Below are positions 27,932 through 56,962 of a DNA stretch of 64,000 nt, piece after piece. The position numbers and the translations under genes are program-made. The stretch's first letter is position 1. The number at the start of each line of letters is the position of its first letter. The notes under the pieces were generated by a model, which saw nothing but the letters and a program-made list of their open reading frames with translations, was not told the origin of the DNA and searched no databases. The stretch is taken from IMG/VR virus record IMGVR_UViG_3300031087_000014. The stretch is one strand, 5' to 3'. Source of the DNA: a virus.

Positions 27932-27949
27932 ACGTTAGGAGGAAATGAA

Positions 27950-28522: not shown

Positions 28523-28531
28523 ATATAAGAC

Positions 28532-28598
28532 ACTCTAAGAGCCTCTAACAGGTCAGCAATACGTTTCCCTACCTTAGAATCATAAAACCTCTTAGAAT
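28532..28598. repeat. ~65-bp dispersed element, copy A
   Basis: ACTCTAAGAGCC...AAAACCTCTTAGAAT, imperfect terminal inverted repeats. Confidence 0.55.
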
Positions 28599-28621
28599 CG
28601 CTCCCACGAATCGTAGGCAAT

Positions 28622-28643
28622 AAAAAAGGAGCCTTTCGGCTCC
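28622..28643 (-). terminator. terminator ending the minus-strand block
   Basis: GGAGCC-GAAA-GGCTCC plus TTTTTT on the minus strand. Confidence 0.8.
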
Positions 28644-28648
28644 CTCTC

Positions 28649-29467
28649 TCATCCTTCCAGATGCTTTTCGATAATCTCACAGAACTCTGGGTCACTGAAA
28701 ACGTCTCCAGCGCCTTTCCTCCAGATTTTACCTCCTGCCTCTTGGATGATCTGCTCTTCGTTATACAAACCGTGAGGGTTTACCTCGTGTACCTGCAAAC
28801 CAAACCTACGGGCCTTCGGGATCAGTTCACTCCAGAAGTTAATCACTAAGTTAGAGCAACCTACAACAACCACCATATCTTGAACTGTCAGATTATCCAG
28901 AACGTGATACATCTCAGTGTAAGCTGGGGCATTCTCGTAGAAGAACACAATGTTAGGCTTAACAAAGAAGTGCTCAGAAACATCCACAGCATTATATCCA
29001 ACATCGATTACACGCCTAGGATCGCCAGGTGAGTCTTGGGTAATCACTTCTGGCAAATAACCGTGAATATGGAGGATATCAGATTTAACACCAGCACGTT
29101 CCAACAGGTTATCAACGTTAGTAGTCAGGTTAATCACTTGACCAGGGAAACGGTTAGCCCATTCTGCAATACGGCAATGAGCTAAGTTTGGCTCAACAGT
29201 ACCCAATTCTTCGCGGCGCTTGTTGTAAAACTCATTGGTTAGAGTGTACAGGTCAATGCCTTTATCATTTTCATACAGCCAGTGAGCCTTAACCTCTGAT
29301 CCAGTATACTTCTCAAAACCTGCACGGAAAGCGCGTAAGTCGCAAACCTCTCCAATATCGTATTCGTCCCACATACTTCTACCGGAAGCGGTGTCGGTAC
29401 GGAAAGCTCGTACTCCACTCTCAACACTAAGTCCCGCACCACTGATTACTATTAAACGTCTAGGCAT
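28649..29467 (-). CDS. Sir2-family NAD-dependent deacylase
   Basis: ISGAGLSVESG..FR, PNLAH, TTNVDNLLERAG, HIHG, KPNIVFF, VVGCS. Confidence 0.9.
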   Translation of the reverse strand: MPRRLIVISGAGLSVESGVRAFRTDTASGRSMWDEYDIGEVCDLRAFRAGFEKYTGSEVKAHWLYENDKGIDLYTLTNEFYNKRREELGTVEPNLAHCRIAEWANRFPGQVINLTTNVDNLLERAGVKSDILHIHGYLPEVITQDSPGDPRRVIDVGYNAVDVSEHFFVKPNIVFFYENAPAYTEMYHVLDNLTVQDMVVVVGCSNLVINFWSELIPKARRFGLQVHEVNPHGLYNEEQIIQEAGGKIWRKGAGDVFSDPEFCEIIEKHLEG

Positions 29468-31391
29468 CTTTCTTTTCCTCCAACTTGATAGTTTCTTTTT
29501 TGACAACACGACCGCTAAACTCCTGACGGTATGTGTAGTATTTCATTGCAATAATACGTCTTGCTTCAATCTCAGTGCAAACCTCTACAACATCAACCCA
29601 CTTAGAGAAGTAGGTGATAATGTCCACGAGAGCACTCATACCGAAACGGCGTTTCTGCACCATATAGGTAGGTGGCCCAGAATCGTGATGCAGTTTCTGT
29701 AACCGGAACATCTGGGACTTTGTTTTCATTTCTGACATTCTTTCCTCCAATCATCGTAAGCCTGCTGATCCCCATAAGCCACGTACACCTGTATATTCTC
29801 AATAGGAGTATCGTGATCCTGCCAACGGATACTACCACCATACTTACTACCAGGGAAAGTGAATTCTGCGATCTTAGTGAACATTGGGTAATCACACTGC
29901 CACTTAGTAACCTCATACTCAGGGAAGTTCTTCTCAACGTAAGCTTTAAAGTCTTCTCCAGCCTTAAAGAATCCATCTAAGTAGTGTGCGTGTTGCTCTA
30001 CTTCTTTCATATTGAGATAGATGTGCTTACGGTTAGGACTTTCCACAAGTTCATCGGGGATGTACAAACCATCCATATGATCAGGGTATTCTTTTTCCAA
30101 CTCGTCGTACTCCTCCCGTGTCACTGGTTCGTTCATCCGGCGCTGCCAGTATTCACTGTAAATATACCAGCCTTCCTCTAAGAAAGCCTTCTCCGGCACA
30201 TACCCCAAAACAGCCCACTTGTCAAACTTAGGATCACGTTTGACGGAGTATTCAGTTTCTTCGTAGTAGTGGCCCATACGACTAGCTCCTAAACGTCGAG
30301 CCTGCAATCCGTGAGTAGCGAATACAATAACAGCACCATCTTCATAATCAGGTGCAGTGACAACAAAAGCTCTAGCAATATTTTCCATTATTTTCCTCCA
30401 GAAACGACAAAAGGAGAAGGTATCACACCCTCTCCTTAGAATCAACCTTCGATTACAACACTTACTTTGTTTTTCTGACCAAACTCGTCATAGTAGAACA
30501 CTTCAAACCCTTCGAGAGAATGGTAAATACCATCCATATCGTAATCTTCGGGCCAGCTTTCGATCCAATCCCCTCCAATATACTTGTCGTAGTTTTCCAC
30601 ATTCTCGTAAGAGTCATAACCACCTTTACCGTTCCGATACAGGTTTGCACAGTCAACCAAGAACTGTAAAAACTCGTACATAGATTCAGTTTCAGTAACA
30701 GGGAAAGCTTTCTCTTCGATAATCTCACCATCTGCATCTCCAATCATAAACTTGGCACTCACCAAGTAAGAGTTGAAGAACCGAGGTGCCACGCTTTCAG
30801 CAATCATTACAGTTCGCACCTTTCCGAGAGGTGGCTGTCTGAAAGCAGGTGAAATAAAACCTTTATGCACTTTAATAGAATTCTTCATCTTCCCTCCTGT
30901 TATGCCCAACGGATATGAACGATCATTTCATAAATTAACCACACTGTACCGACGATACTTGCAATAGCTCCCACACCCGCCATAATGAACAGGATCATAA
31001 ACATCCCTTCCCAGCCTTTACCGAACATCTTCTTTCTCCTCTAATAGTTTGCGTAAACGCAACACTTCATAAGCCAAAACTCGCTCCAGACCGTTACGGC
31101 TATCGTCCCGAAGGTGAACAAGCAACTCTTCTGTTAGTTCTAATTGTTTCATTACTTTCTGCTCCAAGTGATTTCAATAACATCGTAGTCATCTGCAATC
31201 TCGGCATTCATCTTATTAAGAATACAATCCCAAGCCGCAGCCTTCGAAGAGAAAATTAGAAACTGCTTAGTTTCATTCTGCCAAGCAATACCGTCTTTTT
31301 CTTTATGATAGACTGCCCACATAGTCACCTCCAATACGTCAACCATATACCACCAGCAATTATCAGACAGGTAAGAATACCAAATGTCCAT
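29460..31391 (-). CDS. cluster of hypothetical proteins (29460-29738, 29726-30388, 30442-30888, 31152-31322 and smaller ORFs)
   Basis: Co-oriented ORFs with GGAG(G) SDs; starts approximate. Confidence 0.55.
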
Positions 31392-31488
31392 CTTGCCCAG
31401 CGGCGCTCAAGTAATCCAGGAAACTCAATGATAGCCTCAAACATACAAGCAATCAACTGAAAGATTGCCTCAATGATTTCTCCTTCCA

Positions 31489-32187
31489 TTAGCTATTCTC
31501 TAAGAACACAGCTTGGGCAAAGCCCCGAGGAGTGAGAGAGCGGATCATTTTAGTCTTTGCAGACTTGCCTCCCAACTTTTTGTATTGTACAGAGAATCCT
31601 TCATCTAAGTCAACAGGTTTCTTCTCTGGCATCTTAAAGCCTTCGCTCACCCACAGACAGGTTTTCTTTGGATAAGCATCTCTTGCCTTGATAAACTCAG
31701 GGAAAGCCGGATGCTGGTCGTCTTCCGGTAAATAACCACCATACTCGTGAGGGTTAAATATGTGGTTTGGCTTTCTCCACATAGAAGACAGAACACTTAC
31801 GGGATTCTCGATCATATACTCTGCCATATATTTCTCAGCCAGTTCCGCAGCAATCTTAGCAGTAGCAACAGCCTTCTCCTGGAACAGAGGATCTTTCTCC
31901 CGCTTAGCTTCAAAATGACGAGCACCACTTACAGCCATATCAGTGCAAGGAGGAAAGGCAAAGATTAGATCTGGAGCCTCAATCATCACACCGTTTACAC
32001 GTTCACCAACAGGATCGAAGCCAGGCTCAATCCACTGGTTTACATAATGCATATTAGGATGCTGTACTTTGCACGAATATTCTCCGTGGTCGCCTTCGTC
32101 TGCATTGAACAGGAAGACAGTGTGACCTGCCTCCGCCCAATCCTTAGCCGCATATCCCGATCCATCAAACAAGGAAAAGATAATCAT
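31489..32187 (-). CDS. DNA cytosine-C5 methyltransferase
   Basis: SLFDGSG (motif I), FPPC (IV), ENP (VI), RSLTP.GFA. Confidence 0.85.
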   Translation of the reverse strand: MIIFSLFDGSGYAAKDWAEAGHTVFLFNADEGDHGEYSCKVQHPNMHYVNQWIEPGFDPVGERVNGVMIEAPDLIFAFPPCTDMAVSGARHFEAKREKDPLFQEKAVATAKIAAELAEKYMAEYMIENPVSVLSSMWRKPNHIFNPHEYGGYLPEDDQHPAFPEFIKARDAYPKKTCLWVSEGFKMPEKKPVDLDEGFSVQYKKLGGKSAKTKMIRSLTPRGFAQAVFLENS

Positions 32188-32545
32188 TCGACACCTTCCC
32201 ACACAGGGAAAGCAAGTCCATCGTCAGTATACACTTCTCCAATGGCTTGACAGTTATTGCAAGAGATATGATCTCCATCGTAAAACCAGTTAGGTTTCGT
32301 TGCGTCTGTTGTTACAGTAACATTGGATGCTCCGCAGTTATCACATTCCATCCAATCACACACTACTTTTTGCATTTGATCTCCTCTATGAATCCCCAGC
32401 GAATAAACTTCTCCAAGCTGTTCCTTGTGTGGTGAGACTTATACCAACCACCAGCCTGATCCTGCGCTTCTACGCCGTTGTTCTTGCTTGTACGATATTT
32501 ACGGTCAGCACCACCAATCTTACCTGTAGAAACGTAGTATTTCAT
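32184..32545 (-). CDS. two small proteins; 32184-32375 carries a CxxC...CxxC Zn ribbon
   Basis: CDNC...CNNC. Confidence 0.55.
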
Positions 32546-32546
32546 T

Positions 32547-33473
32547 TTACTCTCCTTTATAAGGTCTACAATTATGCTGATTCGCTTTGAATCGCTCTAT
32601 GTAATCTGTCTTACCCAAGCTGTGATAAAGATTCACAACCTTGAAGTAGTTCTCCCACGCATAGGTACGAAAACGCCCTGATGTGATTGAAGTACAGATT
32701 TTCATTAATGCTATCATAAAACTTCGTTCTGGGTCAATCTCAAAGTTGTTTGGGATCTGAGAACGTTCTAACGCAAGCACACAAGCCTCTTCATAAACAC
32801 CTAACAGACGGTATTCCTCTTCCACCTCAAAGAATTTATCCATAGAGGTGAGGACTTGAGCACCTTCAAACATATAGTACCGGAAAGCTGGCTTGTCGTA
32901 AAGAGCAATTGCATCGTGAATATCGTCGTGCTGATAAACGTAGTTTACACCATCACCAGAAAAGAACTCTCCACTAGATACATTTAACTTAGGGTGAGAG
33001 TAGTTGTAGGTCTCTTTCATACGCTTATTGTAGATATCAACAAGCTCACCCGTAATCTCAGCACCTAATGACCGCATAAAGTGGATATCCTTCATCGTTT
33101 TTAGGAAATGAGGGGAGTTCTTCTTGAAGCGGTGAGACATTTTTAGCATATACAGAACATTCAGAGAAACACAGGTTCCTAATCCAGATGTTTGATTCCT
33201 TGTTAGCTCAGGGTGTTTATAGCACCAAGTGAGGATATCGTAGCCACTGCTACCTTCTTGAGCAATCTCGTACTCTTCGATTATATGACCGTCTTTCTTG
33301 ATTAATCCTTTGTTTCCGGTACGGCTGACAGTGTACCCAGCAGCTTCTGAGCGATAAGAAACATTACTCCACTCCCGTTCAGAACAGATGTAATCGATAT
33401 CCAGCATTGTTTTACGCAGCTTAATACCTTCTGGAACATACTCTAGCAAAGCCTGACTTCCAATAATAACCAT
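32547..33473 (-). CDS. putative Pol-beta-superfamily nucleotidyltransferase-like protein
   Basis: N-terminal IIGSQA...DIDY; further KMSH, HDDIH, EEA.VLALER motifs. Confidence 0.5.
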   Translation of the reverse strand: MVIIGSQALLEYVPEGIKLRKTMLDIDYICSEREWSNVSYRSEAAGYTVSRTGNKGLIKKDGHIIEEYEIAQEGSSGYDILTWCYKHPELTRNQTSGLGTCVSLNVLYMLKMSHRFKKNSPHFLKTMKDIHFMRSLGAEITGELVDIYNKRMKETYNYSHPKLNVSSGEFFSGDGVNYVYQHDDIHDAIALYDKPAFRYYMFEGAQVLTSMDKFFEVEEEYRLLGVYEEACVLALERSQIPNNFEIDPERSFMIALMKICTSITSGRFRTYAWENYFKVVNLYHSLGKTDYIERFKANQHNCRPYKGE

Positions 33474-33489
33474 AATACCCTCCTTACAA

Positions 33490-33512
33490 GAAATCCCGCC
33501 GAAGCGGGATCT
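33490..33512 (-). terminator. hairpin / terminator
   Basis: ATCCCGC-TTCG-GCGGGAT plus TTCTT on the minus strand. Confidence 0.65.
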
Positions 33513-33515
33513 ATT

Positions 33516-36500
33516 TTAGTGTTGCTTGACACCCATAGTTGCGTTGTCAGTGTAAGTCTCTTGAGACGCTATCACTTTATTATCTTCAAAGTGATATGCG
33601 TGACGCTTACCTGTAGCCACATCTTCGAACATAGCACAAGCTAGATACTCAAATGGGACGATGGTGTTTTGATTGATAGTGATCAGGTCGATTGTTTTGG
33701 TGTTATCAATCTTAACCTGATTAGTTCGTGTGTCAACAATAAAACCTTTAACACGGCTGAAATTATACTGCTTGCCGTCTGCATAAATCAGAACAACCTT
33801 ACGATTTGTTGGTTTTTCTTTTTTGATCTCTTTCACAGTTCCTTTCTCCTTTATCAGCTTTAAATCCGAATGGTTATACCCATTTGATGTACCGTTATCC
33901 CAATCCACTGTAACAGGAAGAAACCCGCGAAACCGTTCTGTTATGGCTCTCTGCACTGTCCCTACACAATCTGATGGGTTATTACAGGTTGCAGATTGTC
34001 CATAATACCGAGAACCTTCTGCAATCTCAACACGATCACCTACTTTAAACATAAGTCACCTCACTTACTTAGTTGATAAAAAGTTTCATATTGATCCCGA
34101 GTGATAATATCAGGGCAGCCCTTCGTTCCTTTGATGAAAGGCGGTTCAACCACCATATGATTGTTGATTAGACAATCTTCACCACGCATAAAGATTCCAC
34201 GAGGAGTCTTGACAATGGCTCCTTTAGTCTTGGTAGAGAATTTAATCTCACCATCAAAATCACGCATAACGCTCATTGCGTTTGGGGGCCACTCCACACC
34301 AGAGTTAATCACTTCTTGCACCAGTTCCATTACTTAGTTCTCCTTGCCATTTTAATTGTCAGCTTAGATAAAGGCGAGAATACAAACTTGCATAGTAAAA
34401 TAATCACTAGCATAGGCAACCAGAAGGTTGCAGGCCAGAAGTTATTCGTAAACAAGTCAAAACATTTATCCGTATCAACTTCTTTATCGATGTTTTTCTT
34501 CTGTTCATCATACAGATCCATCAGGTAAAACACAACCATAAAGAATGGGATCAAGATAATGTAGCAGAAGAAAGGGTGATACATAACCCAATCCAATACA
34601 ATCATCGTAACACCATTACCTTATGATCGTCAGAAGGTCGTGATGCTAAGTACTCATTGTACTCCTGAACCTTAGCTTTCGCTTCCTCTCTCAGCTTATC
34701 TGCAACAGACAGGCTCCAGTTAGGATCTTTCTCTTTGTTTGTGCTTTGAGTCAAGTTCTCGTAGTAGACATACATCTCGTCACCTACACTCATAGACCGA
34801 CTGCCAGTAGAAACGATTTTGAAAGTAGGACAATCACTGTCGTCATCATTTGTAAGCTTCACAATATCACCAGGGACAAGTCCGTCTTCGTGGTCAATTA
34901 CTGTAAAATGAGCCTTTAGATCGTATTTATTATTTTCGCAATATTCTTGAAATTGAGTCATCTTTTTCTCCTTAAATGGTAGGTTTGTCAGCCAGAGGCT
35001 TATCATAGTTTGGGCTAAAGGTGTGCAGCTTGTCAAACGCATTGAAAGAGCTACGCGATGATTTAGGGCAATGCAGTACCTTAGCTTGGTGTTCGCCGTG
35101 TTGCTTACCGCAGTGCAGGCACAGATACTGAGTTTTATTTTCCATTTTCATTCTCCGGTTCCACTACAGCTTTACGAACAGAACGTACAACATCACTGGT
35201 GATAGCACCACACATAAAGATCCAGATGAAAACGTTGTTATCCACATCCTTGAAGAAGATGTACTGGAAGCCAAGGGCCATAATAACCCACACTAACATT
35301 CCCCACAGAAAACCTTTAGTCTCTTTTTTCATCTCTTACTCCTTATTTAACGAAAGTTCCAATATTGTAAGGCTGTGCTCTTACTTTACCAATGATACCG
35401 CATTCAGCATCTAAGAACAAGTACTTAATATCAAAATAAATCGTGTTGGTCATTGATGCATTTTGACGTGACTTGATCACTTTGTAATTCTGCCCTGTCT
35501 CCATAAACACGAGGTCAGCATACTTCATCGCATCCATAAACTGATCGTACTTATCTCCAAAATGATCGTTTTCAGTTTCAAGATAGCACAGAACTCCGTG
35601 TCTTGCAAAGTACATAATCATTATAAACTCCCGCAGAAGCAAATAAAACAGATCACCGTAGCTAACAGTGTCCAGATAGCCATTAAGATACGAGCACCTT
35701 CACTCCACTGGAAGATACCTACTTCCAACCACTCGCCCTGAACCATAGAACCCAAGAACCAGAGAAAGTAAGGAGGCAGAAAGATCACCAAAACTAACAT
35801 AACGAGAAAACCGATAAACTCTTCCATCATTTTTCTCCTGTTTTGTATTCGTCAAAACATCCTAGCAGAGTCATACCACCTTGAGTAGTAATAAGTGCAT
35901 ACTGGCAACCAGTTTTGTGATCAGTAATTACATAATCAACCCAACCTGTTACACGCTGCTGTTCCATACGTCCAGCTTCAAAGCTACCTGTCTGCAACGG
36001 ATTGACAGGTTCCGCTGCTGTTACATCGCCATCACAGGCAGTAAGACAAAGCAATGCAATACCAATAAGAATCTTTTTCATTTAAAACCCTCCTCGCGTA
36101 AGAATTCTTTCACCTTCTCAATGTCCGTGAAAGTTTTGATTGTGAAGTAATCGTAATGCCGACCATAAGACTTTGGGTTATCCCCTTCCATCCACTTCTT
36201 AACGTAGAAGTACCGGAGTAAATGGTGTTGCACTACCTGATAACCATCCTTTTGCCAAATGATCATTCAACCTCTCCTATACTTTCCGCAGAACCATCCC
36301 AAGCACCGATGATATCCATCGCGGTTGATCTTTTCACTCCGAAATACTTTAACATTGCCTCGACAATATCCTCCGTACTAGGAGAAACGCCTGGCTCTTT
36401 CCTTTCTACCCTTTCAAAGTAAATAGTGAGCCATTTATGATAAGTCATCCAGTTACGGACACTCACCGACGAAAACCTTTCTTGCGATCTGCAAGCTTCT

Positions 36501-36684
36501 TAGCATAGCTACTGCCATAATCTTTGCCGGAATCTTTGTGATAAAGAACACGGTCAGAATCTTTACTCGGACGTTTTCCGATTGCTACCTGTACCACATA
36601 GAGGCGGTTGCCTACACCAGCAGCATCGGTTGTTGTTAGTTGTTTTAATGAAGCCATTGTATCCTCCTGTTGTTTGATGTACAC
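33516..36684 (-). CDS. run of ~11 small hypothetical, membrane and lipoprotein genes (incl. lipoprotein 35827-36081)
   Basis: Tightly packed co-oriented ORFs; TM segments in 34330-34605, 35135-35332, 35621-35830; lipobox LTAC. Confidence 0.55.
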
Positions 36685-36720
36685 ACTCTACCTAACATCT
36701 AAGAGAAGTACAAGTAGTTT

Positions 36721-37302
36721 TTAGAGGTCTAGTGAGAAATCTTCTGAGATATCATCACTCATTTCTTGGGTAAAGCCAATATAGAACAGTGTTGCAGCCG
36801 GAGACGTTTGTCCCAGAAGCTTAGTGATACGCTCAATTTGAATACCGTTTTCGAATAAGATACGACCCTTACTCTTACGAGGGGTGTGAGTTCCCACTTC
36901 CAAAATACCACAACGACGACCTGCCTTACCAAAAGCTTCCAGCACAGCATTATGACTAACTGGAGAACCTTTTGATCGTTTGTCCGAAAGAGAGAATACA
37001 TATTCACCAAACATATCGCGAGACGAAGCTTCCTTTAGACGCTCAGATACAATCTGACGCATAGTGTCAGTGATCTTCACCTTGATAGTTTTGCCTGTCT
37101 TCTTCTGCTTTAACGATACGTGAGTAGCAGAATGAGAAAAGTCGCTCCACTTCAACTGAGTTGCATCGGAGAACCGCAGGGCAGTTTCATACTGCATCAC
37201 CCACAAACTGTAGAATAAGTTGGTTGCACGGTTATCCTTAAGGATCTTCGCCACCTTCTTTACATCTTCGACAGATTTAAGTGATGCTGCTGCTTTACCC
37301 AT
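36721..37302 (-). CDS. minimal tyrosine recombinase (catalytic domain only)
   Basis: ALRFSD (R), KKTGK (K), HTPRK (HxxR), LLGQ (H/W position), TLFY (Y). Confidence 0.85.
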   Translation of the reverse strand: MGKAAASLKSVEDVKKVAKILKDNRATNLFYSLWVMQYETALRFSDATQLKWSDFSHSATHVSLKQKKTGKTIKVKITDTMRQIVSERLKEASSRDMFGEYVFSLSDKRSKGSPVSHNAVLEAFGKAGRRCGILEVGTHTPRKSKGRILFENGIQIERITKLLGQTSPAATLFYIGFTQEMSDDISEDFSLDL

Positions 37303-37338
37303 TACGATTCTCCTCTCAAGTTGATGGAAGTATCTTAC

Positions 37339-37593
37339 CTACTCCTGAACCTCATAGCAAGCAAAATTATACACGTTACGGATTTTATTCGAGTCTGCAT
37401 CCATAAACGTATATTCCCCATTATCCCAGCCAATCTCTCCCGTATAGTGGAAGCTGTACATATAATTGGTATCCGTACAAGCTAAAGTCTTACTTCCTGG
37501 CGGCCCTGCTGTCGGGGAAGGGGAGCATCCGGCTAAGAAAGCCAGAACTAAAGCAATAGCTCCTACTTTAACAGCATCATTCATCTTCGTCAT
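37339..37593 (-). CDS. putative lipoprotein
   Basis: Hydrophobic leader with lipobox FLAGC. Confidence 0.6.
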   Translation of the reverse strand: MTKMNDAVKVGAIALVLAFLAGCSPSPTAGPPGSKTLACTDTNYMYSFHYTGEIGWDNGEYTFMDADSNKIRNVYNFACYEVQE

Positions 37594-39213
37594 TTGATTC
37601 CTCCTCTTCGTCATATGGTTTTTCAATAGACTCAAAGGAGTGCAGAACGTTATCAAAATAACCTCCGCTCTTCTGGTCTAGTTTTGCACCCGTTACACAG
37701 CTACCTGCGTATGCATCATTCTGAGAATCAGCGTAGGATTTGGCTACAGAAATGGCTTCTTGTTCTGTACTGAACAATCCAAGAATACCTTCGCTGTGCT
37801 CCCAACCATCAGACCAATCCCACCAAGCGATGTAGATATCCATAATAGGTTTCTCCTATCAATAAATGTGTTTTTGCACATAAGCTTTCATTAACTGATT
37901 AAGCTCTTCGTTTGTAAATAGTGGAGGTTGTTCTTGCATCAGCAAGTTGTCCACCGAGATTCGTCAATATATCCTTGTTCAACAATCTCAAAGGTTTCAG
38001 TTGTGATTTGATACTTATCCTCGGTGAGGTTATCAATCGCAAAGCTCTTCGCCTCTTCAATAGAGTCAAAACTCTCCACGTAATCCTTAGCACCGCCGCT
38101 TGGGTAGTAGATATCAAAAGAAAAAAGATGATACTTCATTCTAAACGCTCCGCAATAGGAAGAAGAAGATTACCAAGAGCACCAGCTTGCCACAGACGGA
38201 AAAGGTTATGCTCCTTTCTCAGTTCCTTATCCACACCTTTCATTCCATTATGGATATAAACGGGAATGCCGATAGAGTTGATGATAAAGATAGCGTAGCC
38301 TTCGTCCCAAGCTTTGTTAAGAAAGCACATCTGAGAAGTGTGTATGTGATCCCCATCTTTCGCTGCATCAAAAGCGAACTCAGTTTCACCATACCCTGTT
38401 AACAACTGTCCGTCCTTATAATCAGAGAACGGATAGAACATTGCCATTTTCATAGACACCTCCTACCATTTAACGATGATATTTTCAATAAAACCAGGAT
38501 CTCTATGAGACTCATAGTACACAACCTTAAACCCAGCAATTTCCAGCATACGCTTATAAGGCTCCAACTCTAGCTCTTGACGATAACGAGCATAGTGAGG
38601 AGGATTTACTCCAAAGTGATCTACCGGAGATAAATGTGCTTCGAAAAGCCCGCTAGAAGCGGCTTCCTGTATAGCACCTATAACATCAGGGCTAATTTTA
38701 TCCTTGTTTGCTTGAATAGAATGCTGCCGCATATCTTCTGCTCTTACCAAAACTGCATCCCCCATTCATCAGTTACTTCAACACCCATCGCCACCTCAAA
38801 GGCCATACTATACTGCCCTTTATTAAAGAACAGTTCAAACCTGTAGAAGTGGTCGGGACACCTTTCTGACGTAAACTCTGTCGTCACTCCTGTATTAGGA
38901 TTGAAGATCTTAGCCACACCATTCACTAGGGAAACATCTTCCTCTCGGAAAATCTCCCCTCTTTCTAATAGTTTGTATCGTAACATAATTATTCGAAAAT
39001 CCAAACAAGAATACCAACAAAGCACCCAATAATGAAAGTAAGCCTGATATTTTGCCAGTTAATGTTAAAGAAACCCTGGGTAAACATATTCCAATCCCAA
39101 GTGACAAAGCTAATGCCAAAAAGAACAACAAAAGCAAGTACAAGCAGAGCAATAACAAAGGCCAAACCAAAAGCCATTACTACTCCGATGTTACGGATTA
39201 GTCGAGCGATCAT
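37577..39213 (-). CDS. cluster of small hypothetical proteins
   Basis: ORFs 37577-37843, 37939-38139, 38136-38453, 38463-38765, 38744-38986, 38989-39213. Confidence 0.55.
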
Positions 39214-39222
39214 AAATCCTCC

Positions 39223-39684
39223 TTAATAAAGTTGAGCAACATCTTCTGAGAAGCCATAGTCATAGAGCATAAGAGTTCCACGAGAGTTGACACCGCAGTT
39301 GGTAGGATAGTCTGCCATACCAATATCACAAGAGTTCTGATAACCGTACTTTTCATCCACAACTTCTACTCGTGCTTCGAGTTGGGAGAACTTCTTCTCA
39401 GATGCTTTGGTAATACGCTCAAGAGTTTCCATCTCTATCCAGAGAAAGTCAGGATGATGGTTAACGATCTTCGCATAACGCAAACGCTCACGAGGACTCA
39501 TTTTGTCGTAGAGAACAATCTCAGCTTCATTCTGAGCAATACCACGCCAATCTTTAGCCACCTTGATACAAGTGGTATCCAGCAGGTTTTTATAGACAAC
39601 ACGACTGCTGCCTTCTCCTAATTCATCGCCTTTTGCGATGGTTTGAATAACTTCACTAATACGCTCACGTAATGATACCGCCAT
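39223..39684 (-). CDS. minimal protein-kinase-like protein
   Basis: LGEGSSRVVY glycine loop, IKVAK, QNEAE, N.G, LYDYG. Confidence 0.55.
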   Translation of the reverse strand: MAVSLRERISEVIQTIAKGDELGEGSSRVVYKNLLDTTCIKVAKDWRGIAQNEAEIVLYDKMSPRERLRYAKIVNHHPDFLWIEMETLERITKASEKKFSQLEARVEVVDEKYGYQNSCDIGMADYPTNCGVNSRGTLMLYDYGFSEDVAQLY

Positions 39685-39720: not shown

Positions 39721-42161
39721 TCACTCCACCTCTTGTTCGAAAACCACTTTAACATTCTTTAGCTTGCCTGCCAAGTCCCTGCCTTGTTTTTCTTTCAAGG
39801 CTTGCATCGCATCGTCAAATGTATCGAAGGTACGATCATAACTATCAGAATAACAATGCTCTTGTAGAGTGTGCCAGAACAGGGAACTTTTATACTTAAC
39901 CTTGAAGGTGGTACGTTCATCACCCCAAGTGTAACACACAATCTGATATTTCATTACTCCTCCTTGCCATCGATGTTACCAAGGAATACCAGAGTACCGT
40001 TATTCATCTCTTCTGTCAAATGCTGGAGGCTGGTGAAGTTGGATTCCGCACCATTCTTATCTAAGCAGGAGATGTATGTTCCTTCTACATCAATACTGTC
40101 CTGCTGAATGACCAGCATTTCACCTGGGCGACGACAGCCTGCCCGTTTGGTAAACTGGAACACATCGCCAAAGCGAACTTCGGTAATTTTAACAGTAGCG
40201 GTAGTTACAACGGTATCAGTCTTTTTCATTTTATTTCTCCTTAGTGGAATCGAATTTCAAGTTTGTTTTCACCCATAGGCACTGCACGAGCACACCGCAA
40301 GGTTTCAAAATAGCCAACGTAGAAAACGTGGATCTGAGTACGGATGCCTTCGGATGTTTCCAGGCTAATAGCAAACTGCCAGTAGTCTTTATCTTGCGCT
40401 GTACACCAAGCTTTGTCAACTACATCCTTCAACACTTCGGATTTAAATCGACGACCAGATGTTCCACCAGAACGGACATAGCGATCATTCCAAGCTCGGT
40501 CATACTCTTCTGCCAGCTTGTAGTGCTCTTCGATATCTTTCAGAGCCTGTTCTGCTAATTGAACATTGTCAAAGATCAATCCTAAGTCTTGATCATTACG
40601 CTCTTCGCTCCCGAAGGAATCTCCGGTGGTGTAGTCAATAAGGATTTCGTATTTCATTTGTCCTCCGGTATGTTTAACATCTCTAACACCCACTGGAGGG
40701 TATTACATTGTGTCTGTAGTTGTAACCTAGCCTCTGATCCAAGTAGAGGGAAGGATGCTTGAGATAAGTCATCGTTTTTAACAGCATCAACCAATACAGA
40801 AAACCGCTTTTTAAATATCTCTGCTGCTTCTGGAGTACACTCTACACCAGTTGATCGACAAGGTAAAGCATAAACCTGAGAAATCAGCCTATCTCTGTCA
40901 CGTTGATAGGCAGACTCTGAGGCTGCTTTGGCAATAATTAACTCTCGCTCTCGTTTTTGTTCTTCCACTTTAAAGATGAAAGAGAAGAGATTAGCACACT
41001 CTGTGGCAGTAAGAGAGGATGGAGAACTAGAATAACGAGCGTCACTCTCCCGATCATAGATCGAATACTGAGTACGAACTATTTCTAGCTTAACATCACC
41101 AATAATCAGACCATAACAAATTCTTCGGCTGTCCAATACAGAATCCGTGCGTACTCTTGCTACCTCTACCGAACCATTCACAATACCTTCCTTGATCCTG
41201 GACAACATCTCAGAGTCAAACTGAGAGTTATCCTCGGCAGGGATAGGCTTAGTGGTACTATCGTTCAACCCTTTTAAGAAATTAATCACATATCCTCCTA
41301 AAACTCTTTATTGTCAACGTAGTATTGAATGGCCTCAGCCAAACCCATACCACCTAAGCTCCAGCCATTGATACAAACATACGTGTCTACGATGTATCTG
41401 TCAATGACATTTCCTTCGTCATCGTGCTTTGTCCAAGCCATTTTCTCACGAGAGATACTTACTTGGTTGTTTACGATGAAATCAAACATCTCCTCTTTTG
41501 TTAACACTTAGATACCCTCCCTCATCAAACTTCATATTTCCTCCTTAAGGCTGCGCCTTTAGAACGCTTCGCGGGAGGCTTCGCCTTTCCCCGCTACGCT
41601 TGTTGCATCCGTTTAATACTACCTTCACTCTTTTTCCCGAAAGTCAATTAGAATGAGGCTGTAAGCGTCTTGTTCTGAAATGTTCCACTCCAAAGCTTTC
41701 TCCACCACCCAGATATCGTGGTCATAAGCTGTCACCTCTGCTTCCCAACACCAATCAGGATCTGGATGTTTATCTAGGTTGTTACAGTGATTGATCGCTA
41801 CTTGGCGTCTCTCTACCATATCAGCCTTCTCTTTCTCCAGTGCTTCTCTTTCTACTGGAAGTAAACGCTGAATGTGTTCATATCCTACCATCGCTTCGCT
41901 CCTCTTAACGTTCGGCACTTTGTGCCTCTCTTGTTGCATCCGTTAGATCTGTATGTGTACAATTTAGTGTACGATTGTCCAACCCGTCTTCTGCCATTCG
42001 TCACCCTTATACCAACGAGACATATTGTACTCACCTTCACAGTAGATGACACCATTAATCATCTGAAACCATTCATCACAACAGAAGTGACGATGCTTCA
42101 CCTTATCCCCTTCACTCATTGCTTTCTGCGCTTCTTCCCAAGACAAGTTGTACATTTTCAC
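39721..42161 (-). CDS. cluster of hypothetical proteins (39721-39954, 39954-40229, 40241-40657, 40654-41289, 41298-41507, 41625-41891, 41964-42161)
   Basis: Co-oriented ORFs with SDs. Confidence 0.55.
41547..41613 (-). other. cluster of four GCGNAGC mini-hairpin motifs plus one copy of a 15-bp direct repeat
   Basis: Motifs at 41550-41556, 41566-41572, 41578-41584, 41593-41599; CTTGTTGCATCCGTT at 41599-41613 and 41930-41944. Confidence 0.7.
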
Positions 42162-42226
42162 TCCTCTGTGTGTATAACGGAATATTTTGACGTGGGGGGT
42201 GTGATACTCCCCGTCACTTGAAGTAT

Positions 42227-42256
42227 CAGCCTACTCCTTCCCGAAGAAAATATCAA
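42227..42256 (-). promoter_or_regulatory. probable sigma70 promoter driving the leftward block
   Basis: TTGATA-N17-TAGGCT on the minus strand. Confidence 0.45.
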
Positions 42257-42259
42257 GGG

Positions 42260-43640
42260 GTATTTCAATAGAGATCTTCGTTCATCTCAATCAACGTTGT
42301 AGATTGATATGTATTCCCTATTAATAAATGGGGAATTTACCTAATAATAATAGGTAATATGTCTATAATATTTCTGCCAGTATACCCGAATAATTTGACG
42401 CCCCTATCTGTGTAATTTGCCCCGAAATATATCGAGAAAACAGACAGAGTGCCTAACGCGGATTTTTGCCCCCGCCTGATTTTCAGATTTCAAGCCGCCC
42501 AAATATCACAATGGTTTCAATAGCTTACGTAATTATATCATATCAGAGTGAAGGAGTCTATGATCATTTCGTGCTATCTCCAAACATTCCCGAAAATACT
42601 ATCATTTCTTTATTAATCAATAACTTAGAGAGTGGAGAATACGATATATCACTTTCAAGCTCGAATCGTTCACTAATCAACCAGTATTCACCTGACAACA
42701 GCGCAGCGCTCACTATCACAAACCGCTGAAAAGTGCAATTTATTCGGGATCTCAAAAAACGCACACTTTTACAGATAGACGCTCAACAACCTACGGTAGT
42801 TTTGCTCCGAAACCATAATGATCCTGATTATTAAATAAACAATAATAACGTTGTGTTATCATCACAGATGATTCCCTGTTTCACGTTGTGACGATTGTCA
42901 ATGATGACAATATAATAACGGAAAGAAACGATAACGTTTCGTTAGAAACTTAAGTTTCCCACGAAGGCACCGAGGAAAGCGAGAGCTTTTCGAGAGTGGT
43001 TTAGTTCCGTTATTATATTGTGCGTAAGGTGGTGTCCTCACGCCCAATAACTATTATTGCTCAAATAGTTTCGCTGCGCAATCATTATTTCCCGAGATAT
43101 TACCGCTTCGCAATTGTTCTTCCCGAAATGATGATAATAACCTACGGTATAATTTCCTTATGAAACATTAACAACATAAAACATTTTAGTATGTTTATTG
43201 GTTGTTAGTGTATTGTCAGTTAGTGTAATCTTTCCCGAAAGCGATTGTTACTTAGATAATAGTTAGAATGCACATAGTAACGTGTGGTTATTATTACTTA
43301 GTTATCAATAACATATGTTAGCGTTTGTGTGTTGATTGTTTCCTTTGTTTACTATTGCACTTTCATAGATGCAGGTTGTTTAGTGTGTTAATTGAGAGCT
43401 ATTATCATTTATTCACTGTATTGAATAACCATTCATTAAGATGCGTTAAAGTGTGTTAGTGGGTTGAATAACTGCATAATTGCCAATTGTTCGCCTTCTC
43501 AGGTTGTCTGTAAGCCATTCTAAGAGGCTTTTACTGTTAGCTGTGTGTTGATATGGATTGAGAGAGATTCACCGTTTAAGCAGTTTTTGCATAAATGCAC
43601 TGTGACGGTTATTGATAGGCAAAATCTATTGGAAACTTGC
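42260..43640. other. long AT-rich, palindrome-rich non-coding spacer
   Basis: No credible ORF; many hairpins including a perfect 17-bp inverted repeat 42907-42923/43005-43021. Confidence 0.75.
43511..43582. repeat. ~65-bp dispersed element, copy B
   Basis: TAAGCCATTCTAAGAGGCTTTT...GATTCACCGTTTAAG. Confidence 0.55.
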
Positions 43641-43644
43641 AGAC

Positions 43645-43669
43645 AAAATAAAAGGGCTTTTCAGCCCTT
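43645..43669 (-). terminator. terminator closing the early island
   Basis: AAGGGC-TGAAAA-GCCCTT plus TTATTTT on the minus strand. Confidence 0.75.
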
Positions 43670-43686
43670 GTTTTGTTGTTCCTTGC

Positions 43687-46600
43687 TTACATAAAGCCAA
43701 ACGCTTTACAAGCTTTATTTCTGCGTTCGATCACTTTTAAGATTGCCTCTAAATTCTGCTTTGTGATGTAGTTGCGTTCCATTGCTTCCCGAACATTGAC
43801 ACGATAAGCGCCGAACCCCTCACGAATGATCAGGATGTTATCCAGTGGGGTGAGCATTACCCCTGCAACCTCCTCAGAGAAGAAAAGCGCGTTTACTTCG
43901 TATTCGATATTTCCATCATTCACACTTTCGATCATAATGTCAGTACGAACAGCCCAGGCGTAACAATCGTGAATCAGGGTTGTTTGATCTTGGGTTAATG
44001 TTCTGTTGCTGATTGCGTGAGTCAGAGCAGCCGCACCAAAAGTTTCCGCGATAGTGATAACATCGTTAAAGGTGGTGATAGCGAACATAATAAAACCCTT
44101 TTTGTTTGTGGGTTGCTGTATTGCTTCCCGATGAAAAGATTATACGACAAAAGCCCCTTTCGGGGCAAGTGTTTTGATCATTTGTTTGTTATTCTTTTTC
44201 CAGCGGTTCAGCCTCATAACCTAGCGTTCTTATGTCAAACAATGCTTGATCAATCTCGTTGATCTTCTTCTGAAAGAATTCCCGCCGTGCTTGTAGCTTA
44301 TCATCTAGCTGTGATAGGGCTTGCGCTACTGTCTCGCCTTGTGCGTATACAGTGCCATTGTCACGCCCTGGCATATTGCCTGCTGATGCACTTGCAGACC
44401 AATAACCGCGCTTAGAGAAAAACACCTGAAAAGTGCTAACCTGGAAAACTTTTGTTTTTAATACGTGACAAAAACGGATCATTTTCTTTCGCCTTCTATT
44501 GCATCAATAAACGCGCTAACATCCATCGTAAAACCTAAAGCGCCAGCCCGCTTGCAAGGGAGATCGCGCAAATACTCTATATTGCCTTCCATTGCTATAG
44601 CTGTTTCAAGGTCTCTTAATGCTTTGTGCAAGATATGTGAATTCGGGTAGTCTCCTTGTTTCATTCTATCACCTCATAGCCAATTGTTTCACACCAGGAA
44701 AGCGCCTGATCTTTTGTCTGGAATCTTGCACCCTCTACCGCTTGATTTTCCCGATAGCCTGACATTATTTTCAGAGTATAATCAACCTTATTACGATAAC
44801 GATTAGTGATTATTTTTACTCTCATTATTTCCACGCTTTAATTGATCTTTCTAGCTTAGGAATGCTAACCTTTAAGGCTAACATTAAGTTAACTTGCTTA
44901 GGTGTCCAGGTATCTTGATCCTGCAATTCTTGATAACGCTTCTTATCATATGCTAATTGCTCTTTTTTCCTTTTCAGGGTTAATCTACCGTGCCAGGTAA
45001 AGCCGCTAATAGTGTTATTCATTTTATCACCTATGAAAGAAGAGCAAAAGAACCGCCAATGATGAAAGGAAGATCATAGCGGGTGAAACGCTTGTACCGC
45101 ATCCACTGAATGATCACAAAGGAAAGCAACTGTAAAGCGTCGATCACGTTGTTTGTGATGTTCACGCTTTCACTATTAAACATCATTTCGCCTGTTACGT
45201 TGAATGCAACGTTTGACACGTAAGCACAAACTACAGAGAACAAACAAGCCTTGATAAGGCTAGTCTTTGATAATGTCTTAATAATTGCTTTCATTTGTTA
45301 CACCATTTGAGCCAAAAACCTATTATGCACTATTGCCCCTTTCGGGGCAAGCATTATCAATAAATGATTTTCTCGCAGGTCATAGCGTTATGATCTTTCA
45401 TTGACATAGTGATCGAACCTGTGCGGAGATCCCAATCAAGATTCAGCTTTTGTGCGTGAGTTATTTCGAATTGTCCGAGATTATGATAGGCGTAATACTT
45501 ACCTGATACGATTTCTAAGCCAGTGTGAGAGATTGAGATAGATTCTTGCATTTTGTTTTACTCTTTGATGGGTGAAATAAGATAGTAACATTGCCCCCTT
45601 TCGAGGGCAAGCATTATTTAATCTTTCTTTGCTTCTTTCCAGTGAGTCAGATTAATAACGCCTTTTGCTTTCATCTTCTCGATCAAGTCGCTTGCAGTGT
45701 TGAAAGAATTTTTATAATAAGTCACTGTGTCGCAATAGCCTGTAGCTTTATCCTCAAAATCTTCACAATGAATCTTTCCGATGATAAGAGAGTTTAAAAC
45801 GTAATGTTCGCCGGTGTACCAGTTATGCAAGTGAATCGAACAAGAAAAATCATCGCTCGGGCCTTCTGGCGTCATACACGCGATCAAATCCTCGCGCTCA
45901 ACAACTAAACCCCAAACGTGATCTACATCACCGGGAGTTTTTACAGTAGCGTTTACGTTGATAGTTTTCATTGTCGATTGCCTTAATCTTGTGAGGGCTG
46001 GCACCATTGCCGCCCAACACAGATATAATAACATAACGAGGATTAAAGGCAACACTTTGATCAAGAATGTTTGAAATTCTTTTGAGCTACATCTAAATGA
46101 TCTTTTATTGCTTTGAGGCTTGACATATGCGCCAAATGCTCTACCTTTCCTTTCTGGCAATGCTTCTTAGTTAGATGATATCGAGCCAGTAGACAAAGAT
46201 AATCGAAATCGTTATCATTTATCAGTTTATTGCAAATGCCGAAACGGCGGGATATTGGATAACCTTTAAGAGGGTTAAACGCATTGTGACGATTAGCGCC
46301 CATTAACGATCATCTTCAATCAAAATTATTTCATCGCTGAAATGATGCGTTACCATCTCACAACCTTCCTCCGTTATGTAATGAATTGACATATAATCGC
46401 CGTGATCAACTTCTGTAATCAGCAATGAGTATTGCTCACCGAAACAGTTTTCACGCGCCAGGCGATCACCCGCTTGGATACATTCAGCCTTAATCATACG
46501 TGCTTTCATTTTGTTTTCCTTAGTGGTTAGCAGTATTGCCGCCCTTCTGATAAACATCATATCATAGTGAGCGACACGATCAACACTTATTTAAATCTAT

Positions 46601-56155: not shown

Positions 56156-56184
56156 TTGACGCCAGGCGCAAGCCTGGTTACAAT
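56156..56184 (+). promoter_or_regulatory. sigma70 promoter with hairpin spacer
   Basis: TTGACG-ccaggc GCAA gcctgg t-TACAAT. Confidence 0.7.
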
Positions 56185-56189
56185 GTTTG

Positions 56190-56280
56190 TGAAGTAAGGC
56201 AACGCCAACCAACGGCGCTAAACTTGGCTAGCAGGCCCGAAGGGGCTGCAAGGTGGATCGCCGGCAGGCTGTCTAAAATA
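56190..56280 (+). ncRNA. candidate small structured RNA
   Basis: Directly follows the promoter; no SD-led ORF; possible pseudoknot plus GCCC-GAAG-GGGC hairpin. Confidence 0.4.
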
Positions 56281-56534
56281 AGTTTTGTAAAGATTGAAAT
56301 AAAGCTTGATCCATTCCCTCACTGTGGTATTATATCCACAGAGTAAGACGCTACTTAAGTGAAGAGAGACCCGCCCCTGCGCGTCATTTAGGTAATTACT
56401 TACCGTGACTAATCATTTTCCAATAGTAACGCAATGTGACTATCACGCCTGAAATGATAACGTGCGGTATCATTAGGCTGCGAACTATCACCCCCGAAAC
56501 TATGATCAGGCGCATAATCAACCCCGAAAATGCG

Positions 56535-56785
56535 ATTTTTTAATATAAATTTAGGATTACGAATTCTGTTTTTCAAAAAGTCAAAAAAATCCTACGACCC
56601 TGGACCGATTTTTGGAAAATATTTTTTCAAGGTTTTTAAAAATAATTATACTTTGTTGTCTGACTTTAGCCGGAAGCATTTTTAATATAAATTCAGGTTT
56701 ACAAATATTGATTTCTGAAAACTCGAAAAAATCCTACGACCTTTTATCAATTTTAAGTAAAGTGCTTTCCAAGTTTTTGTAAAAC
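56535..56785. repeat. two degenerate tandem repeats, 142-bp period
   Basis: TTTTTAATATAAATT at 56537 and 56679; AAAAAATCCTACGACC at 56584 and 56726. Confidence 0.8.
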
Positions 56786-56797
56786 TCTCTCAGACAC

Positions 56798-56862
56798 GTT
56801 CTAAGAGGTTTTTATAAATACTTGAATGTTGGGTTAGGTTTACTGAGAAAGCTTCTGAGGAT
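56798..56862. repeat. ~65-bp dispersed element, copy D
   Basis: GTTCTAAGAGGTTTTT...AAAGCTTCTGAGGAT. Confidence 0.5.
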
Positions 56863-56962
56863 GCAGCGGTAGAATCAGGAGAGGTGTTAGCTCTCCGTTT
56901 TCCAGGGATCGGCACGTCACTTCAAAACCCTAATTCTTTTCAAATATCGCGCCTAATATCTA

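What the first reader, a model, noticed from the sequence alone, without database searches (positions are those of the whole stretch)
42260..43640. 1.4-kb ORF-free, heavily structured spacer: large ncRNA, origin or injection-pause signal
Seen: in an otherwise densely coding genome this tract has no credible gene but many hairpins (TTCCCTATT/AATGGGGAA ~42315-42335, TTACCTA/TAGGTAA ~42337-42357, ATTGTCA/TGACAAT ~42894-42911, a long ACATTAACAAC/GTTGTTAGTGT stem ~43165-43211). It also has recurring (T/C)CCGA(A/G)A motifs (~42421, 42589, 42806, 43091, 43122, 43234) and AACCTACGGTA twice (~42788, 43139). G-T pairs in several stems fall on the plus strand, which favours a plus-strand RNA or ssDNA fold. 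Established: phages carry large structured RNAs (GOLLD, ROOL), and T5 separates first-step-transfer DNA from the rest by a repeat/palindrome-rich stop signal. Which applies here is inference.
Basis: partly seen in the sequence, partly recalled or inferred. Interest (0 to 1): 0.75.

Follow-up and report, generated by a model that had tools for sequence, protein, structure and literature searches.

The report
Phage genome-end region with terminal repeat
This gene-free 1.5-kb stretch is most likely where the two physical ends of a phi92-like phage chromosome meet, holding a roughly 329-bp terminal repeat and a conserved folded palindrome; this layout is already known in relatives, and the stretch is not a giant RNA.

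Summary
Window 42162-43686 has no credible gene. The listed hairpins and the co-oriented CCCGAA motifs are real, and the motif is locally enriched.

The tract is not structured as a whole. Only 42240-42359, 42840-43080 and the terminator fold better than shuffles, and they do so on both strands. Rfam finds nothing.

The tract is collinear with the terminal region of phage phi92 (Stephanstirmvirinae), with z about 8 against shuffles that keep local composition. GenBank annotates 343-bp direct terminal repeats (DTRs) there. PhageTerm studies of BME3 and FKP3, and one IMG/VR contig start, put the repeat edges at the same conserved boxes.

Those boxes are present in the window and predict a DTR at 42455-42783 (329 bp). 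It sits about 290 nt from the first downstream gene and about 900 nt from the upstream terminator, as in phi92.

A branched palindrome at 42907-43021 is closed by a perfect 17-bp stem. Compensatory changes maintain it. It has counterparts beside the DTR in Stephanstirmvirinae and Vequintavirinae.

The physical ends were not measured here. Earlier follow-ups in this scan reached the same reading on other phi92-like and phAPEC8-like genomes. Their Fur-like boxes are absent in this window.

The parts
41964..42161 (-). First gene downstream of the gap (65 aa, phrog_3474). It begins the tightly packed minus-strand gene array. It is absent in relative L004.
42162..42454 (-). Leader between the predicted terminal repeat and the first gene. 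It holds a sigma70-like promoter (-35 TAGGCA at 42455-42450, 18-nt spacer, -10 TATATT at 42431-42426) that straddles the repeat edge. It also holds the conserved box TATACCCGAATAATTTGAC (about 42382-42400) and two small hairpins (42313-42359) that are not conserved in L004.
   Evidence: the same boxes are in phi92, BME3 and FKP3
42455..42783 (.). Predicted direct terminal repeat (329 bp, edges good to about 15 nt). The left edge is TGCCT|AACGCGGATTTT and the right edge is GACGCT|CAACAA. It is unstructured, carries no coding signal, and is 92% identical to L004 with a single gap column.
   Evidence: phi92 DTR 343 bp; BME3 342 bp; FKP3 317 bp; contig start at the edge
42784..42906 (.). Variable spacer (72% identity to L004, many indels). 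It carries the first AACCTACGGTA copy and one CTCCGAAAC site. L004 has a 67-nt insertion here that duplicates the repeat-edge motif.
42907..43021 (.). Branched palindrome: a 17-bp perfect closing stem around three hairpins. A further hairpin follows at 43022-43043. It is the counterpart of the conserved element beside the DTR in Stephanstirmvirinae and Vequintavirinae.
   Evidence: I1; z about -8 on both strands; compensatory changes in L003 and L004; covariance-model hit, E about 0.003
43044..43260 (+). Segment with three co-oriented TTCCCGA(A/G)A sites (43089, 43120, 43232) and the second AACCTACGGTA copy. All three sites are kept in L004 although the segment is only 76% identical.
43261..43560 (+). 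Fast-evolving tract, G+T-rich on the + strand. It holds four exact GTGTGTTRRT copies (43327-43552) and is 67% identical to L004. It includes the box CTGTAAGCCATTCTAAGAGGC (43508-43528), which is identical in Klebsiella phage FKP3.
43652..43669 (-). Intrinsic terminator of the upstream minus-strand gene.
43687..44088 (-). Last gene upstream of the gap (133 aa, phrog_10173). It has homologues in Phapecoctavirus, Vequintavirinae and jumbo coliphages.

Best explanation
The tract is the terminal (concatemer-junction) region of a virulent myovirus related to phi92 and phAPEC8 (Stephanstirmvirinae).

In replicating concatemers and in assemblies, the two chromosome ends meet here. In virions, a repeat of about 329 bp (window 42455-42783) would be present at both ends, as in T7-type packaging.

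Reading in the sense of the genes (the minus strand), the tract contains, in order:
1. The terminator of the last gene of a loosely packed early-gene island.
2. A fast-evolving repeat tract of about 400 nt.
3. A conserved branched palindrome.
4. The terminal repeat.
5. A leader of about 290 nt with a host-type promoter at the repeat edge, which drives the tightly packed gene array that follows.

Shown here: homology and collinearity with terminal regions that have been measured in relatives; conserved edge boxes; selection for the palindrome's pairing; retention of the CCCGAA sites.

Inferred, not shown: that terminase cuts at these edges in this phage; that the palindrome and the CCCGAA array are cis-acting sites for end recognition or for duplication of the repeat, by analogy with the hairpin intermediate and repeat duplication described for T7; and that the promoter is active.
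For: 1. Layout. The window's 28-64 kb is a minus-strand array of small genes interrupted by this gap. phiWec188, nepoznato, phi1_175008, BME3 and phi92 have ORF-free gaps of 1.5-2 kb in the same kind of array. The phi92 gp248 homologue lies just upstream of the gap in the window.

2. Measured ends in relatives. phi92 has DTR-L at 1-343 and DTR-R at 148270-148612, with 1.1 kb of ORF-free DNA before DTR-R and 355 nt after DTR-L. PhageTerm DTRs of 342 bp (BME3, PMC12210895) and 317 bp (FKP3, PMC11663894) fall at the same place within 13 nt. A 99%-complete IMG/VR contig starts exactly at the edge |CAACAAATAGG. Vequintavirinae phage KPP-1 has a 514-bp DTR inside its ORF-poor tract (PMC9862379).

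3. Homology. Global alignment of the gap with the phi92 junction scores 662 against 562 +/- 12 for block shuffles (z about 8), and 504 for the reversed sequence. The DTR alone gives z of 4-6. Weak BLAST hits are collinear with matching spacing. Both edge boxes are present.

4. Conservation mosaic against L004. The DTR is 92% identical with 1 gap column, the palindrome is 92% and 43521-43651 is 97%. The spacers are 67-76% with many indels.

5. Palindrome. Every lineage has an element of 114-206 nt closed by a perfect 15-21-bp stem. There is covariation in the closing stem and the third hairpin. L003 and L004 show compensatory G-C to T-A and A-T to G-C changes. A covariance model built from 12 relatives hits only 42908-43020 in the 64-kb window (22 bits, E about 0.003).

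6. CCCGAA sites. Eight of nine are kept in L004.
Against: No reads or virion DNA are available for this phage, so the ends are inferred by homology only.

Nucleotide similarity to phi92 is too low for BLAST at E 1e-5.

No contig of this lineage ends at the predicted edges. L003 ends at the palindrome arm, and G001, G002 and L012 are uninformative.

The genes immediately flanking the gap are not the same as in phi92.

The Fur-like boxes that are prominent in phi92 are absent here.

The covariance-model E-value is rough and modest.

The BME3 and FKP3 records contain an extra internal copy of the DTR, which looks like a curation artefact and weakens them somewhat as references.
Confidence: 0.75

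Rival explanations
1. The tract is mainly a replication origin: an AT-rich or strand-skewed unwinding region, iterons for an initiator, and a cruciform.
For: There are four exact GTGTGTTRRT copies only at 43327-43552. There is a strong palindrome and co-oriented CCCGAA sites. The relatives carry a T7-like replisome (PMC3606486), and from my own memory (not checked here) T7 has secondary origins near its ends.
Against: There is no DnaA-box cluster. The GTGTGTT repeats are not conserved in L004, where the tract is 67% identical. The GC-skew turn in the window is at about 28 kb, where transcription direction changes, not here. The conserved blocks coincide with the DTR and its neighbour, not with the repeat tract.
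Confidence: 0.12
2. A large structured non-coding RNA of the GOLLD/ROOL type, or another long RNA, is transcribed from the + strand across the tract.
For: The tract is ORF-free and has local hairpins. In relatives the palindrome folds about 16 kcal/mol better on the strand equivalent to window plus, and single-sided changes there give G-U.
Against: There is no Rfam hit even at E up to 1. About 1 kb of the tract has fold z about 0. The listed helices are not conserved. In this lineage the palindrome folds equally on both strands. The spacers are riddled with indels.
Confidence: 0.03
3. A T5-like injection-stop signal halts DNA entry after a first-step-transfer segment.
For: The tract is palindrome- and repeat-rich and borders a 12.6-kb island of small genes that first-stage notes (unchecked here) describe as self-promoted. 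By homology the tract lies at the chromosome end.
Against: By homology the end itself is inside the tract, so it would be the first or last DNA to enter, not an internal stop. There is no DnaA-box cluster. The repeat is about 0.3 kb, unlike T5's repeat of about 10 kb. If a stop signal exists, the second non-coding block at about 56.2-57.0 kb is a better candidate.
Confidence: 0.05
4. It is an ordinary regulatory intergenic region. It is homologous to the phi92 terminal region, but this lineage has lost the ends or moved them elsewhere.
For: There is no direct end data for this lineage, and the flanking genes differ from phi92.
Against: Both edge boxes, a repeat-sized block without indels, and the adjacent palindrome are all retained under selection.
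Confidence: 0.05

Closest known systems
Direct terminal repeats and flanking ORF-free DNA of Escherichia phage phi92 (NC_023693: DTR-L 1-343, DTR-R 148270-148612), with BME3 and FKP3
   Same: The position inside a co-directional array of small genes is the same. So is the order of terminator, variable repeats, branched palindrome, repeat, leader with promoter-like site and first gene. The repeat lengths are similar (329 predicted here against 317-343). Both edge boxes (AACGCG.ATTTT and GCT|CAACA) and the TATACCCGA box are conserved.
   Different: Nucleotide identity is too low for BLAST. The inside of the palindrome is not alignable. The palindrome sits 124 nt from the repeat instead of about 250. 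The Fur-like boxes of phi92 (up to 17 of 19 matches) are missing, and a co-oriented CCCGAA array is prominent instead. The immediate flanking genes differ. The ends have not been measured.
Bacteriophage T7 concatemer junction (short exact terminal repeat that must be duplicated; a hairpin-ended intermediate)
   Same: Both have a short exact DTR in non-coding DNA, a host-type promoter just inside one end, and a palindrome close to the repeat. KPP-1 was typed as T7-like by PhageTerm (PMC9862379). PMC4281155 summarises repeat duplication in T7 and a hairpin structure that contains the repeat.
   Different: This is a myovirus of about 150 kb with no phage RNA polymerase promoters. No experiment links the palindrome to processing. 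My recollection that arrays of short repeats flank the T7 repeat comes from memory and was not checked here.
T5 first-step-transfer boundary (injection-stop signal)
   Same: Both are ORF-free DNA rich in palindromes and repeats, associated with a chromosome end and an island of small early genes.
   Different: The T5 signal lies inside a terminal repeat of about 10 kb and stops transfer at 8% of the genome. Here the repeat is about 0.3 kb and the tract contains the end itself. There is no DnaA-box cluster.
The 'non-coding' box of rV5, and the 514-bp DTR of Vequintavirinae phage KPP-1
   Same: There is an ORF-poor tract of 1.7-1.8 kb with a short DTR, and a multi-hairpin element closed by a perfect 16-21-bp stem about 300 nt away.
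   Different: In Vequintavirinae the tract lies between convergent gene blocks. The sequence is unalignable to the window, and the covariance model does not hit it convincingly (E 0.23).

Membership tests
Terminal region (short exact DTR) of Stephanstirmvirinae/phi92-like phages | An ORF-free tract of 1.5-2 kb inside a co-directional array of small genes, with a gp248-like gene on the upstream side | tested here: met
Terminal region (short exact DTR) of Stephanstirmvirinae/phi92-like phages | Collinear sequence homology to the phi92 junction | tested here: met
   Global alignment z is about 8 against block shuffles. The DTR alone gives z of 4-6. Hits are collinear.
Terminal region (short exact DTR) of Stephanstirmvirinae/phi92-like phages | Conserved boxes at both repeat edges, spaced about 320-340 bp apart | tested here: met
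   The window has TGCCT|AACGCGG at 42455 and GACGCT|CAACAA at 42783/42784, which are 329 bp apart. The same boxes are in phi92, BME3, FKP3, phiWec188 and G004.
Terminal region (short exact DTR) of Stephanstirmvirinae/phi92-like phages | The repeat is physically present at both ends of virion DNA (read-start peaks, two-fold coverage) | not testable with these tools
   No reads are available. The window's own assembly is not held.
Terminal region (short exact DTR) of Stephanstirmvirinae/phi92-like phages | Fur-box-like sites near the ends (typical of phi92-like phages, according to earlier follow-ups in this scan) | tested here: not met
   The best site in the gap matches 14 of 19 and there is no enrichment, whereas phi92 has sites matching 16-17 of 19.
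Conserved branched palindrome beside the DTR (Stephanstirmvirinae/Vequintavirinae) | An element of 114-206 nt closed by a perfect stem of at least 15 bp, 120-310 nt from the repeat, with pairing maintained by compensatory change | tested here: met
   The covariance model from 12 relatives hits only 42908-43020 on the + strand (22 bits, E about 0.003, rough).
Conserved branched palindrome beside the DTR (Stephanstirmvirinae/Vequintavirinae) | Strand-specific fold (G-T pairs on one strand only) | tested here: inconclusive
   In relatives the MFE is about 16 kcal/mol better on the plus-equivalent strand, and single-sided changes give G-U. Z-scores, however, are similar, and the window lineage is symmetric.
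Large structured ncRNA (GOLLD, ROOL or any Rfam family) | A match to a curated covariance model | tested here: not met
   There were 0 matches at E up to 1 in 40000-46000.
Large structured ncRNA (GOLLD, ROOL or any Rfam family) | Structure across the whole tract that is conserved in relatives | tested here: not met
   About 1 kb of the tract has z about 0. The four listed hairpins are not conserved in L004.
T5-type injection-stop signal | An internal position at the end of a first-transferred segment within a long terminal repeat; a DnaA-box cluster (recalled from memory) | tested here: not met
   By homology the end lies inside the tract and the repeat is about 0.3 kb. There is one 1-mismatch DnaA box at the edge of the gap and no cluster.
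Iteron or DnaA-type replication origin | Conserved iterons and/or DnaA boxes, and a skew switch | tested here: inconclusive
   GTGTGTTRRT occurs four times locally but is not conserved in L004. There is no DnaA cluster. The skew turns at 28 kb.

The most novel reading that the evidence does not exclude
The branched palindrome next to the terminal repeat, and possibly the co-oriented CCCGAA array, is an undescribed cis-acting element shared by Vequintavirinae, Stephanstirmvirinae and this divergent lineage. It would work as a folded single strand or a cruciform that primes duplication of the terminal repeat or marks the site where packaging starts. In this lineage, CCCGAA sites would replace the Fur-like boxes of phi92-type phages as the protein-binding sites near the ends.
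Probability: 0.3. Interest if true: 0.55.

Novelty: new member of a known kind. Interest (0 to 1): 0.3.

Why it matters
Knowing where the physical ends lie matters for three practical reasons. It lets this phage group be annotated and oriented correctly. It shows which genes enter the cell first. It is also needed to engineer or reboot such phages.

The finding extends the phi92-type end architecture to a lineage that is not in the phage database searched. It shows which parts are under selection (the repeat, its edge boxes and the adjacent palindrome) and which are lineage-specific filler.

It also explains the unexplained 'non-coding' box drawn in the rV5 genome map. The role of the conserved palindrome in processing T7-style ends in large myoviruses remains an open and testable question.

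Tried and rejected
- Megablast and blastn of the gap against 50,697 phage records gave no match.
- Rfam at E up to 1 and a tRNA scan found nothing.
- The window's own assembly is not held. The nearest record, G001, covers only window 24976-39293.
- Scans of IMG/VR and the metagenome collection with a 20-mer from the repeat returned only one other lineage, L004/L012 (99% identical to each other), so there is no depth for covariation across the whole tract.
- The L012 contig (147.6 kb) could not be opened to look at its ends.
- A terminase search in G002 was empty, because G002 is only half a genome.
- The phi92 paper (PMC3457257) is not held, so I relied on the GenBank features.
- I tested whether the CCCGAA motif is part of sigma70 promoters on the minus strand. 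Only the site at 42421 has a credible -35/-10 pair, so I rejected this as a general explanation.
- The motif is not a genome-wide promoter element.
- I found no cluster of DnaA boxes or Fur boxes.
- A sigma28 reading of the GCCGATAA-like sites in phiWec188 was dropped, by eye on the sequence: there is no -35 element and the orientation is opposite.
- I first took IMG/VR locus lengths to be contig ends. That was wrong, and only G004 really starts next to the element.

Full report
**What the window is.** The window comes from a large virulent myovirus. Its nrdA gene is 72% identical at the nucleotide level to Phapecoctavirus-type phages (Stephanstirmvirinae), and no closer record is in the phage collection. 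The large ORFs in about 1-28 kb lie on the plus strand. Those in about 28-64 kb, mostly small genes, lie almost entirely on the minus strand. The finding sits inside that minus-strand array.

**Checking the observation.**
- The tract between the start of gene 41964-42161 and the stop of gene 43687-44088 has only non-ATG ORFs of 87 aa or less. The two longest (87 aa and 66 aa) have no PHROG hit; the shorter ones were not searched.
- Those two ORFs overlap on opposite strands. They are kept in the nearest relative only because the DNA is about 92% identical, and the amino-acid changes are mostly non-synonymous.
- TTCCCGAAA with at most 1 mismatch occurs five times on one strand in 1 kb. That compares with 20 in the whole window on both strands, so about 0.2 are expected.
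- The tract is not heavily structured as a whole. A 120-nt scan with dinucleotide shuffles picks out only 42240-42359 (z about -4), 42840-43080 (z about -7) and the terminator (z about -3), equally on both strands. The rest has z about 0.
- Rfam and ARAGORN find nothing.

**Close relatives.**
- IMG/VR and one metagenome contig give a second lineage, L004/L012. A near-identical fragment, L003, ends inside the tract.
- The alignment is a mosaic. 42455-42783 is 92% identical with a single gap column, 42907-43021 is 92%, and 43521-43651 is 97%. The segments between them are 67-76% identical and full of indels.
- Eight of nine CCCGAA sites are kept, including three in a segment that is only 76% identical.

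**Finding the homologue.**
- The upstream gene (phrog_10173) led to phiWec188 and a Vequintavirinae phage. Both have ORF-free gaps of 1.6-1.7 kb a few genes further on.
- The rV5 paper draws an unexplained 'non-coding' box in its genome map (PMC3606486).
- Papers on BME3 and FKP3 report PhageTerm DTRs of 342 and 317 bp (PMC12210895, PMC11663894). In both records the repeat lies inside the big ORF-free tract.
- The phi92 reference record annotates DTR-L at 1-343 and DTR-R at 148270-148612. There is 1.1 kb of ORF-free DNA before DTR-R and 355 nt between DTR-L and gene 001.
- The three repeats coincide within 13 nt at each edge. A 99%-complete IMG/VR contig begins exactly at the right-edge box.
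- Vequintavirinae phage KPP-1 has a 514-bp DTR, supported by coverage and PhageTerm and typed as T7-like, inside its ORF-poor tract (PMC9862379).

**Mapping onto the window.**
- In window plus orientation the conserved left edge reads TGC(T/C)T|AACGCG(G)ATTTT. The right edge reads ...GCT|CAACA.
- The window has these boxes at 42454|42455 and 42783|42784. That gives a 329-bp repeat, about 290 nt from the first downstream gene and about 900 nt from the upstream terminator. This is the phi92 layout.
- Global alignment of the whole gap with the single-repeat phi92 junction, in the same gene sense, scores 662. Shuffles within 20-nt blocks give 562 +/- 12, and the reversed sequence gives 504.
- The repeat alone gives z of 4-6 against phi92, BME3 and FKP3.
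- Weak BLAST hits form a collinear chain with matching spacing. The chain runs from the terminator-proximal box, through both arms of the palindrome and the inside of the repeat, to the edge box, the TATACCCGA box and a leader box.
- A sigma70-like site (TAGGCA, 18-nt spacer, TATATT) straddles the left edge and points at the downstream array. Its -35 is the conserved edge box.

**The palindrome.**
- 42907-43021 is a 17-bp perfect closing stem around three hairpins, with z about -8 as DNA on either strand.
- Every lineage examined has such an element of 114-206 nt, closed by a perfect 15-21-bp stem and lying 120-310 nt from the repeat. The lineages are phi92, BME3, FKP3, phi1_175008, phiWec188, PsgM04F, nepoznato, ESCO5, four IMG/VR contigs, LTH01 and KPP-1.
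- In an alignment of 12 Stephanstirmvirinae copies, three closing-stem positions and six positions of the third hairpin covary. Single-sided changes give G-U on the strand equivalent to window plus.
- Within the window's own lineage, L003 changes G-C to T-A in hairpin 1 and L004 changes A-T to G-C in hairpin 2.
- A covariance model built from the 12 copies hits only 42908-43020 on the plus strand in the 64-kb window (22 bits, E about 0.003, rough). It also hits the L004 copy.
- Strand preference is suggested in relatives, where the MFE is about 16 kcal/mol better on the plus-equivalent strand. It is not clear after shuffling controls, and it is absent in this lineage.

**Mechanism.**
- The shown facts fit a T7-style chromosome: concatemers cut at fixed sites, with a short repeat that has to be duplicated.
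- I therefore infer that the palindrome and the co-oriented CCCGAA sites are cis-acting sites for end recognition or repeat duplication. I also infer that the edge promoter starts transcription of the tight gene array. These steps are inference only.
- A replication origin could coexist in the fast-evolving repeat tract. Nothing specific supports that.

**Comparison with earlier work in this scan.** After reaching this reading I looked up earlier notes. Several follow-ups on phi92-like and phAPEC8-like genomes reached the same conclusion: a 329-343-bp DTR plus an undescribed folded element plus Fur-like boxes. I confirmed strong Fur-like sites in phi92 (up to 17 of 19 matches) but found none above background in this window. 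This window therefore adds a more divergent lineage. That lineage keeps the repeat, its edges and the palindrome, but not the Fur-like sites.

**Verdict.** The tract is real and functional, but it is an ordinary feature for this phage group: the genome-end region. It is not a large ncRNA. Whether it also holds an origin or affects DNA entry remains open.

Noticed in passing
window 56160-56960: A second ORF-free block bounds the other side of the 12.6-kb island of small genes. It has two direct repeats of about 130 bp (about 56530-56660 and 56680-56790), two co-oriented CCCCGAAA sites (56491, 56521) and a TTCTAAGAGG copy. If DNA entry is stepwise, this block is a better candidate for a stop signal than the finding itself.
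   Followed up: partly
window 28588(-), 43515, 48835, 51512, 56796: A CCATTCTAAGAGG-like motif occurs 5 times against 1.6 expected. Copies lie in both non-coding blocks and at the convergent junction near 28.6 kb. The 21-nt version at 43508-43528 is identical in the gap of Klebsiella phage FKP3.
   Followed up: partly
L004 (IMGVR_UViG_3300031087_000234) against window 41964-42161 and 42784: The nearest relative lacks the 65-aa gene (phrog_3474) next to the leader. It also carries a 67-nt insertion just outside the predicted repeat that duplicates the edge motif TAGACGCTCA.CA.
   Followed up: partly
L008-L011 (GenBank PP239276 BME3, PP895363 FKP3): Both records seem to carry an extra internal copy of the terminal repeat, as if the repeat had been pasted onto a contig that already held it. 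The BME3 DTR-L feature is offset by about 73 nt from the sequence that is actually duplicated at the record's ends.
   Followed up: partly
L003 (IMGVR_UViG_3300013307_000052), end of contig = window 42909: The contig breaks exactly at the left arm of the 17-bp closing stem. This is probably an assembly break caused by the palindrome, not a physical end.
   Followed up: no
L014/L015 (phi92 junction): Fur-box-like sites match up to 17 of 19 positions inside and beside the phi92 repeat. The window's tract has none above background. The proteins that bind near the ends may therefore differ between lineages.
   Followed up: yes
L002 9255-9368 (LTH01) and L026 2839-3044 (KPP-1): Vequintavirinae tracts hold multi-hairpin elements closed by perfect 16- and 21-bp stems. 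In KPP-1 the element lies about 300 nt from the 514-bp DTR. The 'non-coding' box of rV5 is probably this same terminal region.
   Followed up: partly
PMC12695924 and the LC7395xx records: The paper says the phiWec genomes end in direct terminal repeats. However, nrdA sits at very different coordinates and strands in sister records, so the record ends look arbitrary and do not mark physical ends.
   Followed up: no
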